From NCBI GenBank assembly GCA_030691585.1, contig JAUYEC010000145.1, forward strand, positions 1 through 44,496: a stretch of DNA of 44,496 bases, given 5' to 3'. The translations under genes and the position numbers were made by a program. The DNA is from Candidatus Omnitrophota bacterium. Its GTDB lineage: Bacteria > Omnitrophota > Gorgyraeia > Gygaellales > Profunditerraquicolaceae. Position 1 is the stretch's first letter. Every line of letters begins with the position of its first letter. Shown in pieces: positions 40,478 to 44,403 of the stretch. The notes below the pieces were generated by a model. That model was not told where the DNA came from and made no database searches. It saw only the letters and a program-made list of their open reading frames with translations.

Positions 40478-40508
40478 TGTAGGGACAGCATATTATGCTG
40501 TCCCTACA
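40478..40508. repeat. family-A palindrome (A3, central T, i.e. opposite orientation to 19124/30637)
   Basis: TGTAGGGACAGCATATTATGCTGTCCCTACA. Confidence 0.95.
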
Positions 40509-40551
40509 GGATGTAATCATAAATCAATATAGAAAAAGGAGGAGTGATATC

Positions 40552-41034
40552 ATGGAGCCAGCAATTATGAGTCAATTCAAAGATCTGGGTTTGAGTATGG
40601 TCCTGGCGCTTGCTGCTTGTGGGTCGGCAATCGGAGCCGGGACAGCCGGGATGAGTGCTATCGGGGCCTGGAAGAAAAATTACAGCCAGAATAAAGCGGC
40701 GTCGTTTATGCTGGTAGCTTTTGTCGGCGCCCCGCTTACCCAGACCATCTATGGGATGATCGTAATGAATAAACTCTTTGAGCTGGCGGCAAAAGGGTTA
40801 TACTGTTGGGGTATCGGCGCGTTTGCCGGCCTGGCAATAGGATTGTCGGCGTATTGGCAGGGTAAGTGCGCGGCCTGCGCCTGCGACGCCATGGGCGAAA
40901 CAAATAAGGGTTTCGGCAATTACCTCGTCGTGCTGGGCATGACTGAAACCGTAGCACTCTTTGTCATGGCCTTTACGCTGGGCATACTCGGTAAATTAGC
41001 AGCGACAATTCCCGTACCAATCGTGGGCGGTTAG
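40552..41034 (+). CDS. atpK: V-type ATP synthase proteolipid subunit K (double-hairpin, 4 TM)
   Basis: The RBS AGGAGGAG precedes ATG 40552. The 160-aa protein has GAPLTQTIYGMIV, SAYWQGKCAA and GMTETVALFVMAF, which align by eye with the Enterococcus hirae NtpK helices carrying T64/Q65, Q110 and E139. The stop TAG 41032-41034 lies inside tRNA-Val. Confidence 0.88.
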   Translation: MEPAIMSQFKDLGLSMVLALAACGSAIGAGTAGMSAIGAWKKNYSQNKAASFMLVAFVGAPLTQTIYGMIVMNKLFELAAKGLYCWGIGAFAGLAIGLSAYWQGKCAACACDAMGETNKGFGNYLVVLGMTETVALFVMAFTLGILGKLAATIPVPIVGG

Positions 41035-41426: not shown

Positions 41427-41476
41427 AAAAGAGCCTTTTGATTACGTAAATAGATCAAAAGGCTCTTTTGTGTTTT
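41427..41476 (+). terminator. strong intrinsic terminator after tRNA-Asp
   Basis: A perfect 16-bp stem AAAAGAGCCTTTTGAT / ATCAAAAGGCTCTTTT with an 11-nt loop, followed by GTGTTTT. Confidence 0.85.
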
Positions 41477-41497
41477 CACAGCCAAAAACCTTTTTAT

Positions 41498-42454
41498 ATG
41501 GTAAAACTTGAGCTTTGCCGTAGAACCCAAGATATAGAAAGCCGTTTTAATGCGCGCGTAGAAGATCTGCTTTATCAAATGCACTGGCCTGAAGAGATGA
41601 AACATAGCGATATAAGCGCAGAGATAGATATTCCAAGAGCGACAGTGACTAAATGGTTTCATCATTACGATATACCCACGCAGACTTGCCGCAGGTTTAC
41701 TGACATGAATCTTACGAGCTGGCTTTATAAGACCGGGCAGTTAAAAAAGAAGCCCGAATATAAAAAACCCGTAAAAGAACCGCAAGCCAATGTCAATTTC
41801 TTTAAGAAATGGTCTACAGAAATGGCGTATGTTTTAGGCTATTTTGCCGCCGACGGCAGTATGTACGCTAACCCGCGAGGGGCAAAATATATTACCTTCA
41901 GTTCGATCGACCGCGAAATGCTGGAGAAAGTCAAGCGATGCTTAAATTCTAAACATAAAATCGCCTTAAGAAAGAGATATAATGATAACTGGCAAGATTC
42001 ATATACGTTTCAAATCGGTTCTAAAGAAATGTATAGCGATATGATTAAGCTGGGTTTTATGCAAAATAAAGCCCGGAGATTTCATCTGCCAAAAGTGCCC
42101 AAGAAATATATGAACCACTTTATTAGAGGCCATTTTGACGGCGACGGCAGCATTAGCTGCGGGTATACAAAAATAAAAGCTAGGAATTATAAAATGGTTC
42201 CATATGTCTCAAGTTGTTTTGCTTCGGCAAATTTAAGTTTTTTAAGAGAAATCTATAAGGTTTTGAAAGAAAACGCGGGCCTTGCAGGGGGACATATAGA
42301 TAAAAAAGGCGGCCACCTTGCATATTCTAAATCCGACAGTATCAAGTTGTTCTATTATATGTATCGGAATGCCACTAAAGACCAATATTTAGAAAGAAAA
42401 TATACTAAATTTTTGCAAGCGGTTAATCCGGAGGGAGGTAGTTTAGCAAATTAG
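41498..42454 (+). CDS. free-standing LAGLIDADG homing-endonuclease-like protein (two motifs) with N-terminal HTH
   Basis: YVLGYFAADGS (motif 1) and NHFIRGHFDGDGS (motif 2) lie about 105 aa apart. The N-terminal DISAEIDIPRATVTKWFHHYDIP is HTH-like. The start is uncertain: ATG 41498 has no clear RBS, and the track's start lies inside the terminator. Confidence 0.75.
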   Translation: MVKLELCRRTQDIESRFNARVEDLLYQMHWPEEMKHSDISAEIDIPRATVTKWFHHYDIPTQTCRRFTDMNLTSWLYKTGQLKKKPEYKKPVKEPQANVNFFKKWSTEMAYVLGYFAADGSMYANPRGAKYITFSSIDREMLEKVKRCLNSKHKIALRKRYNDNWQDSYTFQIGSKEMYSDMIKLGFMQNKARRFHLPKVPKKYMNHFIRGHFDGDGSISCGYTKIKARNYKMVPYVSSCFASANLSFLREIYKVLKENAGLAGGHIDKKGGHLAYSKSDSIKLFYYMYRNATKDQYLERKYTKFLQAVNPEGGSLAN

Positions 42455-42514: not shown

Positions 42515-42545
42515 AAAGGCGGAATCGCCTTTTTGCTTTGTTTTT
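42515..42545 (+). terminator. intrinsic terminator after the LAGLIDADG gene
   Basis: AAAGGCG-GAAT-CGCCTTT followed by TTGCTTTGTTTTT. Confidence 0.7.
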
Positions 42546-42570: not shown

Positions 42571-42600
42571 CGAGGGACAGGATAATATCCTGTCCCTACA
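42571..42600. repeat. family-A palindrome (A4 subtype)
   Basis: CGAGGGACAGGATAATATCCTGTCCCTACA. The 5' clamp is degenerate (GAGGG instead of GTAGGG). Confidence 0.9.
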
Positions 42601-42634
42601 GTTGAATACGTTAAGGTAATTATATGGAGGAAAT

Positions 42635-42955
42635 ATGGCTACAATAGAGGATTTTCACAAGTTAGAGTTTAAAGTCGCTGTGATTAAAGAAGTTACGGAA
42701 CATCCCAATGCCGACCGGCTTTATGTGGTCACTTTGGACGTGGGGGACAAAACCAAGCAGGTGGTAGCCGGGATCCGCGGCAGTTATCAGAAGGAAGAAT
42801 TGATCGGCAGACAGGTGGTGCTGGTGGATAATCTGGATCCGGCAATCCTGCGCGGAGTGGAAAGCCAGGGCATGATCCTGGCAGCTTCCGATGAAAACGG
42901 CATCGTGGTGGTAAGCCCGGAGAAACCCGTGAAATTAGGAAGCGTTGTAAAGTGA
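42635..42955 (+). CDS. tRNA-binding domain protein (Trbp111/CsaA/MetRS-C-terminal-like OB fold)
   Basis: FHKLEFKVAVIKEVTEHPNADRLYVVTLDVGDKTKQVVAGIRGSYQKEELIGRQVVLVDNLDPAILRGVESQGMILAA is the classic EMAP/Trbp111 pattern. The RBS is GGAGGAAAT. Confidence 0.88.
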   Translation: MATIEDFHKLEFKVAVIKEVTEHPNADRLYVVTLDVGDKTKQVVAGIRGSYQKEELIGRQVVLVDNLDPAILRGVESQGMILAASDENGIVVVSPEKPVKLGSVVK

Positions 42956-43464
42956 TCGAGCAATTTGTGCCAAGCGAGGTTTGTCTGAAATGTATTGGAT
43001 GCTGTCGTTTCAGCGAGGCGAATTCCGTTTGGCTGCCCTGTCTCTTGGATGAGGAAATACAGGACCTGCTGGACAAAAAAATACCGCCGGTCTCCATATC
43101 CATAGATAAAAAGATCCAACCCATTCCTAATCCGCGCCTTGTGGAGAGCGCTTTTATCTGCGCCTTTTTGGATGCGTCGGCCAATAAATGCGCGATCTAT
43201 GATTTCCGTCCGCTGGAATGCCAACTCTATCCGTTCTTAATCGCGATACGGGATAAAAAAGTCCTGCTTACGGTGGATTTAAATTGTCCTTATATCAAGG
43301 ATAAAATGAGCAGCCGGGAATTTGAGGAATACGTGCGCTATCTGACCGATTTCTTAAACGCCCCGGCGCGGATTCGGCTGCTGCGGGATAATCCGCATAT
43401 TATCCAGGCCTACAAGGACGCGCTGGACGTAGTAGAATTAAAGATGCCCGATGAAACTAAATGA
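42952..43464 (+). CDS. YkgJ-family (CxxCxxCC) cysteine-cluster protein
   Basis: CLKCIGCCRF ... CAFLDASANKCAIYDFRPLECQLYPF is the putative Zn/Fe-chelating domain signature. It has a GTGA overlap with the upstream gene. Confidence 0.75.
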   Translation: MIEQFVPSEVCLKCIGCCRFSEANSVWLPCLLDEEIQDLLDKKIPPVSISIDKKIQPIPNPRLVESAFICAFLDASANKCAIYDFRPLECQLYPFLIAIRDKKVLLTVDLNCPYIKDKMSSREFEEYVRYLTDFLNAPARIRLLRDNPHIIQAYKDALDVVELKMPDETK

Positions 43465-44350
43465 TCTATCTCTTCGCGACAAGGAAATCTTTTCGAAATA
43501 CCTGAGTTTATCCAGCCACGAATTATCCGTCTATAACTTTATTAATATCTACATATGGATTGGGCTCTTTGAAATTAAATGGGCCCTGATCAATAAGAGC
43601 CTCTGCGTATTTTTTCAGGATAGAATCGGCGCGTTTCTCTATCTGCCGCCGCTGGCGCAAACCCATGATCCTGAAACAGTAGAGAAGGTATTTTCGATAT
43701 TGGACTCGATCAACGCCAACAAAGAAATTTCCCGCATCGAGAATGTGGAAGCCGGGGATCTGGAATTCTACCGCGGCCTGGGCCTGAAGTGCGCGCAAAA
43801 ATCTTGGGATTATCTTTGTTCACGCCAGAGCCTGGCGGAGTTAAAAGGCGATAAGTTGAAATCAAAGCGCGCCGCCTATAATTATTTTGTCAAAAACTAT
43901 TCCTTCGAGTTCCTGCCGTTTACAAAAAAGGATTTAGGCGGCTGCCTGAAGCTCTATCAGACCTGGGCCGAGGACCGCCGGGGCGATAATCCGGATATGA
44001 TGTATCGTGCGATGCTGGAAGATAGCTGTAACGCGGTCGAGATATTGTTAAAGCATTACGATAAATTGAATTGTGTGGGCCGGATAGTCAAAGTGAACTC
44101 TAAGATCAAAGGTTTTACCTTTGGTTACAAGCTGAACGCTGATACATTTTGCGTTTTATATGAGATCACGGATCTGTCCATCAAAGGCCTGGCGCAATTT
44201 ATCTTCCGTGCCTTATCACAGGAGATGACGGATTACAAATATATCAACATCATGGACGATTCGGGCTTAGAAAACCTGAAAAAAGTAAAATTGTCGTACC
44301 GGCCGGTAAAGCTAGTCCCGGCGTATATTGTGAAGAGAAAATTACCGTAG
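43451..44350 (+). CDS. DUF2156 (MprF C-terminal / aminoacyl-phosphatidylglycerol-synthase-like, GNAT-fold) domain protein
   Basis: ...LSSHELSVYNFINIYIW..., ...DYLCSRQSLAELKGDKLKSKRAAYNYFVKNY..., ...LYQTWAEDR... and the C-terminal ...LKKVKLSYRPVKLVPAY match my recollection of stand-alone DUF2156 proteins. It overlaps the upstream gene by 14 nt. The stop TAG is the GTAG of the palindrome at 44347. Confidence 0.65.
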   Translation: MKLNDLSLRDKEIFSKYLSLSSHELSVYNFINIYIWIGLFEIKWALINKSLCVFFQDRIGAFLYLPPLAQTHDPETVEKVFSILDSINANKEISRIENVEAGDLEFYRGLGLKCAQKSWDYLCSRQSLAELKGDKLKSKRAAYNYFVKNYSFEFLPFTKKDLGGCLKLYQTWAEDRRGDNPDMMYRAMLEDSCNAVEILLKHYDKLNCVGRIVKVNSKIKGFTFGYKLNADTFCVLYEITDLSIKGLAQFIFRALSQEMTDYKYINIMDDSGLENLKKVKLSYRPVKLVPAYIVKRKLP

Positions 44351-44374
44351 GGACAGGATAGCATCCTGTCCGCC
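44347..44374. repeat. family-A palindrome (A4 variant) supplying the stop codon of the DUF2156 gene
   Basis: GTAGGGACAGGATAGCATCCTGTCCGCC. The 3' clamp is degenerate. Confidence 0.85.
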
Positions 44375-44403
44375 GAGGGACAGCATAATATGCTGTCCCT
44401 ACA
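44375..44403. repeat. family-A palindrome (A3)
   Basis: GAGGGACAGCATAATATGCTGTCCCTACA, directly abutting the previous copy. Confidence 0.9.

What the first reader, a model, noticed from the sequence alone, without database searches (positions are those of the whole stretch)
42635..44350. Overlapping three-gene unit: stand-alone tRNA-binding domain, YkgJ Cys-cluster protein and DUF2156 (aminoacyl-tRNA transferase-like) protein
Seen: three genes with 4-nt and 14-nt overlaps follow a terminator and a good RBS.
- A 106-aa Trbp111/CsaA-type OB-fold tRNA-binding protein.
- A 170-aa CxxCxxCC YkgJ-family protein.
- A 299-aa DUF2156-like protein.

Established: DUF2156 is the catalytic C-terminal domain of MprF-type aminoacyl-phosphatidylglycerol synthases, which take the amino acid from aminoacyl-tRNA. 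Trbp111-like domains bind the tRNA elbow in trans.

Inference: this may be a split, soluble aminoacyl-tRNA-dependent transferase system. In it, tRNA capture would be delegated to a separate subunit and a metal or redox cluster protein would take part. No flippase or membrane domain is present, so the acceptor substrate (lipid, peptidoglycan precursor or small molecule) is unknown.
Basis: partly seen in the sequence, partly recalled or inferred. Interest (0 to 1): 0.6.

Follow-up and report, generated by a model that had tools for sequence, protein, structure and literature searches.

The report
Split cysteine-cluster plus aminoacyl-tRNA transferase enzyme
Two of the three genes encode the halves of a widespread but unstudied enzyme, a metal-binding cysteine-rich part joined to a part that probably moves an amino acid from charged tRNA onto an unknown target, while the third gene is an ordinary tRNA-binding housekeeping protein that sits beside them only in this phylum.

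Summary

The real unit is the pair of genes 2 and 3:
- The pair is adjacent in all 29 close Omnitrophota loci.
- It is one fused polypeptide (434-538 aa) in 19 of 20 distant Omnitrophota orthologs.
- The fused form also occurs at 560 or more loci in Nitrospirota, Poribacteria, Planctomycetia and TA06.
- A tree places the window's two-gene form as a derived fission at the inter-domain linker.

The DUF2156 model (pLDDT 97) is a tandem GNAT. Its nearest structure is the uncharacterised 2HQY (Z 34.9), followed by MprF, FemX and Sbb17, and the basic tRNA-binding helix is conserved. The partner domain has eight invariant cysteines.

Gene 1 is not a dedicated subunit:
- It passes the MetRS beta-subunit model.
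- It occurs in 289 of 301 Omnitrophota genomes, against 114 for DUF2156.
- It is the only tRNA_bind gene in relatives whose MetRS lacks that domain.
- It is never next to the fusion outside Omnitrophota.

Donor amino acid, acceptor and metal are unknown. I found no description of this architecture in the literature.

The parts
42515..42545 (+). Terminator-like hairpin (AAAGGCGGAATCGCCTTT) with T-run, ending the upstream LAGLIDADG gene region
   Evidence: the number of such sites is not above shuffles, so this is weak evidence
42574..42596 (.). Copy of the dispersed palindrome GGGACAG-N8-CTGTCC, just upstream of the unit
   Evidence: 12 sites in the window against 0 expected
42626..42630 (+). 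GGAGG ribosome-binding site, 4 nt before the ATG of gene 1
   Evidence: read directly from the sequence
42635..42955 (+). Gene 1: 106-aa stand-alone tRNA-binding OB-fold protein of the MetRS beta-subunit / Trbp111 type. It is a phylum-wide housekeeping gene.
   Evidence: PF01588 100.3 bits. TIGR00399 metG_C_term 118.4 bits, cut-off 116.65. Ortholog in 289/301 Omnitrophota genomes. Sole PF01588 match in G000 and in 5 relatives whose MetRS frame is about 500 aa.
42952..43464 (+). Gene 2: 170-aa CxxCxxCC (YkgJ-type) protein with eight invariant Cys (C11, C14, C17, C18, C70, C80, C90, C112). It corresponds to the N-terminal module of the fused enzyme.
   Evidence: PF03692 34.1 bits. Cys conservation across 56 and 19 sequences. 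Aligns to residues 5-160 of fused protein P0121. Fused to DUF2156 in 19/20 distant orthologs.
43451..44350 (+). Gene 3: 299-aa free-standing DUF2156 tandem-GNAT protein, a probable aminoacyl-tRNA transferase. It corresponds to the C-terminal module of the fused enzyme.
   Evidence: PF09924 92.4 bits. AF2 pLDDT 97.3. 2HQY Z 34.9, L-PGS 4V36 Z 20.4, MprF Z 19-20, FemX Z 17.5. Basic helix 132-148 with R140 at 100%. Aligns to residues 181-473 of P0121.
44350..44399 (.). Two further copies of the palindrome family. The first abuts the TAG stop of gene 3. The contig ends at 44496.

Best explanation
Genes 2 and 3 encode the two halves of one conserved bipartite enzyme. In most lineages it is a single polypeptide: an N-terminal eight-cysteine CxxCxxCC module followed by a C-terminal DUF2156 tandem-GNAT module. 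In the window's family the gene was split at the inter-domain linker. The two ORFs overlap by 14 nt, are probably translationally coupled, and the products presumably reassemble as a heterodimer.

Inferred mechanism:
- The DUF2156 module binds the acceptor stem of an aminoacyl-tRNA with its conserved basic helix (K132, K135, K137, K139, R140, K148).
- It transfers the aminoacyl group to a hydroxyl or amino group of an acceptor held by the first GNAT lobe.
- The Cys module binds metal, either a [4Fe-4S] cluster by analogy with FliB, or zinc.
- It sits N-terminal to GNAT-I, where MprF has its membrane domain. It therefore most likely helps to bind or present the acceptor, or gates activity by redox state.

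The acceptor (lipid or small molecule) and the donor amino acid are unknown.

Gene 1 is the phylum's general trans-acting tRNA-binding protein, the counterpart of the C-terminal domain that MetRS lacks here. It is co-transcribed with the pair in Omnitrophota by inherited synteny. It may help tRNA handling but is not a specific subunit.
For: Shown:
- The pair is adjacent in 29/29 close loci.
- It is fused in 19/20 distant Omnitrophota orthologs. Both Pfam domains were confirmed in two of these fusions.
- An exhaustive search with a fused protein gave 3228 relatives, 188 at E<=1e-30. About 80 of the top 150 representatives are full-length fusions.
- At least 560 loci occur in named genomes of Nitrospirota, Poribacteria, Planctomycetia, TA06 and Omnitrophota.
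- The fused protein folds as one compact body: pLDDT 92.9, pTM 0.90.
- The split maps to the linker.
- In the tree the root state is fused, with about 5 changes. The window lies in a 31-member split clade with support 0.90. Independent splits were verified in Poribacteria and Nitrospirales.
- Eight Cys are invariant.
- Fold of the window protein: 2HQY Z 34.9; then only aminoacyl-tRNA transferases (4V36 20.4, MprF 19-20, FemX 17.5, Sbb17 16.9, FemA 15.8); acyl-CoA tandem GNATs score 14.1 or less.
- The family profile hits 4V36 at E 4.8e-5 through the basic helix.
- The basic helix is conserved and is the hallmark of these transferases (PMC6103681, PMC8913301).
- FliB's Cys motif binds [4Fe-4S] (PMC8598068).

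Gene 1.
Against: - No biochemical data exist for any member, including 2HQY.
- The catalytic Arg of aaPGS could not be mapped because model coordinates and the Hebecker papers were not available.
- The role of the Cys module is pure inference. No solved relative was found, and zinc versus Fe-S is undecided.
- No neighbour recurs across phyla, so nothing hints at the acceptor.
- The Trbp gene is tightly linked to the pair in Omnitrophota (26/29 close and 10/20 distant loci, often with a 4-nt overlap). This leaves room for a real functional link in this phylum.
Confidence: 0.6

Rival explanations
1. One reading: a three-subunit soluble transferase in which the Trbp111-like protein is the dedicated tRNA-capture subunit for the DUF2156 enzyme.
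For: - Same order and tight overlaps in 26/29 close loci.
- Trbp lies within 3-4 kb upstream in 10/20 distant Omnitrophota loci and across many families. By a hand reading of coordinates, this is roughly four in five genomes where both genes could be placed.
- A tRNA-binding protein beside a presumed tRNA-dependent enzyme is functionally plausible.
Against: - Trbp is present in 289/301 genomes against 114/301 for DUF2156. Family f8, for example, has Trbp at 73-75% identity with DUF2156 in 0/15 genomes.
- It passes the MetRS beta-subunit model.
- It is the only tRNA_bind gene where MetRS lacks that domain.
- UPF0047 is inserted between Trbp and the pair in several families.
- None of about 60 non-Omnitrophota fusion loci has Trbp within 3 kb.
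Confidence: 0.15
2. The DUF2156 module is not tRNA-dependent. It would be a tandem GNAT that uses an acyl-CoA or another donor (or is non-catalytic), working with an Fe-S partner in an unrelated reaction.
For: - The nearest structure, 2HQY, has no known function.
- Tandem GNATs that use acyl-CoA also match, for example MshD at Z 14.1.
- Identity to MprF domains is only 12-15%.
Against: - The basic helix typical of aminoacyl-tRNA transferases is conserved, with R140 at 100%.
- Every match between 2HQY and Z 15.7 is an aminoacyl-tRNA transferase.
- The Pfam profile matches end to end.
- All characterised PF09924 members use aminoacyl-tRNA (PMC6103681, PMC8913301, PMC9379638).
Confidence: 0.15
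3. An MprF-like lipid aminoacylation system split over the genome: the pair makes an aminoacyl-lipid at the inner leaflet, and the stand-alone LPG_synthase_TM protein encoded elsewhere (contig C60) flips it.
For: - A PF03706 gene exists in this genome at 136.8 bits.
- MprF domains are the best characterised structural relatives.
- FliB, a Cys-motif relative, is membrane-associated (PMC8598068).
Against: - PF03706 is present in 279/301 genomes regardless of DUF2156, for example f8 15/15 and f9 17/17.
- It is never linked to the pair in the loci examined.
- Free-standing PF09924 enzymes can also use small-molecule acceptors, as VlmA does (PMC9379638).
Confidence: 0.25

Closest known systems
MprF / aminoacyl-phosphatidylglycerol synthase catalytic domain (PF09924; PDB 4V34, 4V36, 6LV0, 7DUW)
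   Same: Tandem GNAT fold (Z 19-20.4). Pfam profile matched end to end. Conserved basic helix between the two GNAT lobes. The C-terminal K-x-x-Y/F-x-P motif aligns with 4V36.
   Different: No N-terminal membrane flippase domain. Only 12-15% identity. Preceded instead by, or partnered with, an eight-Cys CxxCxxCC module. Acceptor unknown.
2HQY, a free-standing DUF2156 protein of Bacteroides thetaiotaomicron (function unknown)
   Same: Closest relative: E 1.6e-25 by sequence, 1e-63 by profile, Z 34.9 with rmsd 2.1 over 288 residues. Same size and stand-alone form.
   Different: The B. thetaiotaomicron control genome gave no PF03692 match, so that protein works without a CxxCxxCC partner.
Fungal ErgS (free-standing DUF2156, Gly-tRNA to ergosterol) and ErdS (AspRS-DUF2156)
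   Same: DUF2156 enzymes without a membrane domain that depend on the basic helix and draw aminoacyl-tRNA from the cellular pool (PMC8913301, PMC7334510).
   Different: Eukaryotic, with sterol acceptors. The partner domain is an aaRS or an unrelated N-terminal extension, not a Cys cluster.
VlmA / Ady7 (free-standing PF09924 enzymes of azoxy antibiotic pathways)
   Same: Soluble PF09924 enzymes that use aminoacyl-tRNA with a small-molecule acceptor (PMC9379638). They are a precedent for a non-lipid acceptor.
   Different: Actinobacterial biosynthetic clusters with VlmH/B/O/R partners. None of these were seen near the pair.
FliB flagellin lysine methyltransferase (Cys motif related to PF03692)
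   Same: An N-terminal Cys-rich motif ending in CC, and eight conserved cysteines. The motif binds an oxygen-sensitive [4Fe-4S] cluster (PMC8598068).
   Different: The motif spacing is CX4CX3CC, not CX2CX2CC. It is a SAM-dependent methyltransferase with no GNAT partner. Homology to gene 2 was not tested here.
Aquifex aeolicus Trbp111 and the separately encoded MetRS beta subunit (from my own knowledge, not checked in a paper here)
   Same: A stand-alone tRNA_bind protein of about 110 aa in a genome whose MetRS lacks the C-terminal domain. Gene 1 passes TIGR00399.
   Different: In Omnitrophota it lies upstream of the CxxCxxCC-DUF2156 pair.

Membership tests
PF09924 / DUF2156 aminoacyl-tRNA transferases | Profile match above the curated threshold over the whole domain | tested here: met
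   92.4 bits against 27.5, profile positions 9-297 of 298
PF09924 / DUF2156 aminoacyl-tRNA transferases | Tandem GNAT fold | tested here: met
   AF2 pLDDT 97.3. 2HQY Z 34.9, 4V36 Z 20.4, FemX Z 17.5 over the whole chain.
PF09924 / DUF2156 aminoacyl-tRNA transferases | Positively charged helix between GNAT I and II that binds the tRNA acceptor stem | tested here: met
   Helix 134-149 in the model. K/R conserved at positions 132, 135, 137, 139, 140 (100%) and 148. Feature as defined in PMC6103681 and PMC8913301.
PF09924 / DUF2156 aminoacyl-tRNA transferases | Catalytic Arg contacting the alpha-carbonyl of the aminoacyl group at the tunnel bottleneck | tested here: inconclusive
   Nearly invariant R95 and R140 and invariant K280 exist. 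They could not be mapped because there were no model coordinates and the source papers were not held.
PF09924 / DUF2156 aminoacyl-tRNA transferases | RNase-sensitive aminoacyl transfer from aminoacyl-tRNA | not testable with these tools
   Needs biochemistry
MprF (bifunctional aaPGS) | N-terminal integral-membrane flippase domain fused to the synthase | tested here: not met
   The 299-aa protein is entirely tandem GNAT. The only PF03706 gene is on another contig and does not co-vary with DUF2156.
PF03692 CxxCxxCC / YkgJ family | Profile above threshold, with the CxxCxxCC motif plus further conserved Cys | tested here: met
   34.1 bits against 23. C11-x2-C14-x2-C17-C18 plus C70, C80, C90 and C112 are invariant.
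PF03692 CxxCxxCC / YkgJ family | Binds zinc or an iron-sulfur cluster | not testable with these tools
   Analogy with FliB only (PMC8598068)
MetRS beta subunit / Trbp111 (TIGR00399, PF01588) | Curated equivalog-domain threshold | tested here: met
   118.4 bits against 116.65, a narrow pass. PF01588 100.3 bits.
MetRS beta subunit / Trbp111 (TIGR00399, PF01588) | The genome's MetRS lacks its own C-terminal tRNA-binding domain | tested here: inconclusive
   In G000 the MetRS gene runs off the contig end at 493 aa. In five relatives the frame is 500-519 aa and the small gene is the only PF01588 match.
CsaA export chaperone (TIGR02222) | Curated subfamily threshold | tested here: not met
   55.6 bits against 119.65

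The most novel reading that the evidence does not exclude
The CxxCxxCC-DUF2156 protein, fused or split, is a distinct and widespread class of aminoacyl-tRNA transferase found in Nitrospira, Poribacteria, Planctomycetia and Omnitrophota. In it an iron-sulfur or zinc module replaces the membrane domain of MprF and either selects a new kind of acceptor or makes aminoacylation responsive to redox state or oxygen. It would be the first metal-cluster-dependent member of the family.
Probability: 0.3. Interest if true: 0.75.

Novelty: new variant of a known kind. Interest (0 to 1): 0.55.

Why it matters
Every characterised DUF2156 enzyme diverts aminoacyl-tRNA from translation to modify lipids, sterols or antibiotic precursors. 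All of them carry a membrane domain or an aaRS, or stand alone.

Here the same catalytic fold is bound to an eight-cysteine metal module. The link has been kept through repeated fusion and fission over several phyla. These include environmentally important nitrite oxidisers (Nitrospira) and sponge symbionts (Poribacteria).

Working out the acceptor and the role of the metal site would add a branch to tRNA-dependent, non-ribosomal chemistry. It would also give a first function to part of the very large, uncharacterised CxxCxxCC family and to the 2HQY-type proteins. The natural fusions give a ready single-chain form for expression.

The finding also corrects an attractive but misleading guilt-by-association: the tRNA-binding gene is a housekeeping neighbour.

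Tried and rejected
Neighbourhoods were surveyed with the genome search and the fetch from genomes instead.
- The search for related loci with the 70-sequence alignment failed for lack of a conserved stretch. It worked with 12 sequences.
- The Hebecker 2015 and 2011 papers on aaPGS catalytic residues are not held. Model coordinates are not exposed. So I could not map catalytic residues or analyse the domain interface in the fused model.
- A profile of the Cys domain found no solved relative in the PDB at E<=10. The atlas returned only CxxCxxCC/YkgJ clusters and held no structure.
- Sequencing runs: no RNA holder was listed, so co-transcription could not be tested.
- I looked for a conserved neighbour that might reveal the acceptor, and none recurs across phyla. 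Omnitrophota has UPF0047, an RNase T-type exonuclease and TrpE-like genes. Nitrospira has a hybrid histidine kinase. Poribacteria has DegT aminotransferase, dehydroquinase and thiamin pyrophosphokinase genes.
- Rejected: that the upstream 723-aa ORF in L042 is a full MprF- or MetRS-type fusion. It carries only a weak PGI match plus tRNA_bind.
- Rejected: that the stand-alone LPG_synthase_TM gene is a specific partner. It shows no co-variation with DUF2156.
- Literature searches for DUF2156, PF03692, PF09924 and YkgJ found no description of the fused or paired architecture.
Full report
**Observation.** The + strand carries three ORFs at 42635-42955 (106 aa), 42952-43464 (170 aa, GTG start) and 43451-44350 (299 aa), with overlaps of 4 and 14 nt.
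- All three match Pfam above the gathering thresholds: tRNA_bind 100.3 bits, CxxCxxCC 34.1 bits, and LPG_synthase_C 92.4 bits over profile positions 9-297 of 298.
- A GGAGG lies 4 nt before the first ATG.
- A hairpin with a T-run lies at 42515-42545, although such sites are not enriched over shuffles.
- The window is a whole contig (C94) of a 1.64-Mb Omnitrophota MAG, 84% complete. That genome holds exactly one match to each of the three families.

**Genes 2 and 3 form the real unit.**
- The DUF2156 protein has about 1,400 close relatives, and those that carry a name are from Omnitrophota.
- Among 301 sampled Omnitrophota genomes, 114 have an ortholog, including 41 of 41 in the window's own family.
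- In 29 close loci the CxxCxxCC gene lies immediately upstream every time.
- In 19 of 20 more distant Omnitrophota orthologs the two are one ORF of 434-538 aa, with CxxCxxCC at the N-terminus and DUF2156 at the C-terminus. Pfam confirmed both domains in two of them.
- An exhaustive search with one such fusion (P0121, 475 aa) gave 3228 relatives, 188 at E<=1e-30. About 80 of the top 150 representatives at 50% identity are full-length fusions.
- A scan of species-representative genomes found at least 560 loci in Nitrospirota (many Nitrospira), Poribacteria, Planctomycetia, TA06 and Omnitrophota.
- Divergent DUF2156 paralogs (22-27% identity) in some Omnitrophota have no CxxCxxCC neighbour.
- The B. 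thetaiotaomicron control genome has DUF2156 but no CxxCxxCC match. The partnership is therefore specific to this clade.

**Fusion versus fission.**
- The window's two proteins align to residues 5-160 and 181-473 of the fusion, so the break is at the linker.
- I built a FastTree tree of 94 DUF2156 domains rooted on the paralogs. The window lies in a clade of 31 two-gene Omnitrophota sequences (support 0.90) nested among fused forms.
- Parsimony gives a fused root and about five changes.
- I verified that a Poribacteria locus and a Nitrospirales locus are independently split into two adjacent ORFs.
- Repeated fission with adjacency retained is strong evidence that the parts act together as subunits.

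**Structure and family.**
- The window's DUF2156 protein folds with pLDDT 97.3 as a tandem GNAT.
- Its best structural match is 2HQY, an uncharacterised free-standing DUF2156 protein (Z 34.9, rmsd 2.1, 288 residues).
- Next come only aminoacyl-tRNA transferases: L-PGS 4V36 (20.4), MprF (19-20), FemX (17.5), Sbb17 (16.9), FemA (15.8) and FemX of Weissella (15.7).
- These rank ahead of the acyl-CoA tandem GNATs, which score 14.1 or less.
- By sequence, 2HQY matches at E 1.6e-25, or 1e-63 with a profile. The profile also reaches 4V36 at 4.8e-5 through GNAT-I and the basic helix.
- The helix LKGDKLKSKRAAYNYFVK has K/R conserved at six positions, with R140 at 100%. The literature treats this helix as the tRNA acceptor-stem binding element common to these transferases (PMC6103681, PMC8913301).
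- The fused ortholog folds as one compact body (pLDDT 92.9, pTM 0.90).

**The Cys module.**
- Eight cysteines (C11, C14, C17, C18, C70, C80, C90, C112) are invariant or nearly so in 56 stand-alone and fused sequences.
- There is no solved relative by profile.
- The only characterised protein with a related motif that I found is FliB. Its CX4CX3CC motif binds an oxygen-sensitive [4Fe-4S] cluster, and it also has eight conserved Cys and associates with the membrane (PMC8598068).
- Whether gene 2 binds Fe-S or Zn, and what the module does, is inference.

**Gene 1.**
- It passes NCBIfam TIGR00399, the MetRS beta subunit / C-terminal domain model, at 118.4 bits against a cut-off of 116.65. It fails the CsaA model.
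- A stand-alone ortholog is present in 289 of 301 Omnitrophota genomes, far more than have DUF2156.
- Family f8 has it at 73-75% identity, yet has no DUF2156 ortholog in 15 genomes. There it sits beside a TadA-like deaminase with no CxxCxxCC gene nearby.
- In five relatives, one of them a single-contig genome, MetRS occupies a 500-519 aa frame without tRNA_bind, and the small gene is the only PF01588 match. In the window's own genome the MetRS gene is cut by a contig end.
- Within Omnitrophota the gene is upstream of the pair in 26/29 close and 10/20 distant loci, sometimes with UPF0047 in between.
- Of 80 fusion loci from named genomes, only three have Trbp within 3 kb. All three are Omnitrophota, and none of the roughly 60 from other phyla has it.
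- I therefore read gene 1 as the phylum's general trans-acting tRNA-binding factor, linked to the pair by lineage-specific synteny. A supporting role in tRNA delivery in this phylum is not excluded.

**Acceptor.**
- No neighbour recurs across phyla.
- A stand-alone LPG_synthase_TM gene exists on another contig. It is in 279/301 genomes regardless of DUF2156, so it gives no signal.
- Characterised free-standing PF09924 enzymes use sterols (ErgS, PMC8913301) or a small hydroxylamine (VlmA, PMC9379638). Both lipid and soluble acceptors therefore remain open.

**Verdict.** This is a new variant of a known kind: a DUF2156 aminoacyl-tRNA-transferase-like enzyme with an obligate eight-Cys metal module, here in a secondarily split form, next to a housekeeping tRNA-binding gene. 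I found no description of this architecture in the searchable literature. Expression data were not obtainable.

Noticed in passing
window 42574-42596, 44350-44399, and 9 further sites: The palindrome family GGGACAG-N8-CTGTCC occurs at 12 sites in the window (0 expected). Copies flank this unit, and one abuts the TAG stop of the DUF2156 gene.
   Followed up: partly
L042:3586-5757 (-): In one Omnitrophota genome the Trbp domain is the C-terminus of a 723-aa ORF with a weak phosphoglucose-isomerase match. This is either a real fusion or a lost stop codon.
   Followed up: no
L075-L078 (family f8 genomes): Where the CxxCxxCC-DUF2156 pair is missing, the Trbp gene sits next to a TadA-like tRNA/cytidine deaminase gene. 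That fits a general tRNA-related role.
   Followed up: partly
L042, L049, L052, L057, L060, L061, L091-L093: An RNase T-type DEDD exonuclease gene, sometimes with a WYL domain, lies immediately downstream of the DUF2156 gene in nine Omnitrophota loci. The window's contig ends before this position.
   Followed up: partly
L085-L089: A second, divergent free-standing DUF2156 paralog (22-27% identity) exists in some Omnitrophota, without a CxxCxxCC or Trbp neighbour. Its function is unknown.
   Followed up: partly
G000 contig C60:5182-6060 (-): A stand-alone LPG_synthase_TM (PF03706) gene, present in 279/301 Omnitrophota genomes irrespective of DUF2156.
   Followed up: yes
window 41468-42454: A LAGLIDADG-type endonuclease ORF (PF14528, 52.7 bits) lies directly upstream of the unit. 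The V-ATPase K subunit is at 40495-41034.
   Followed up: no
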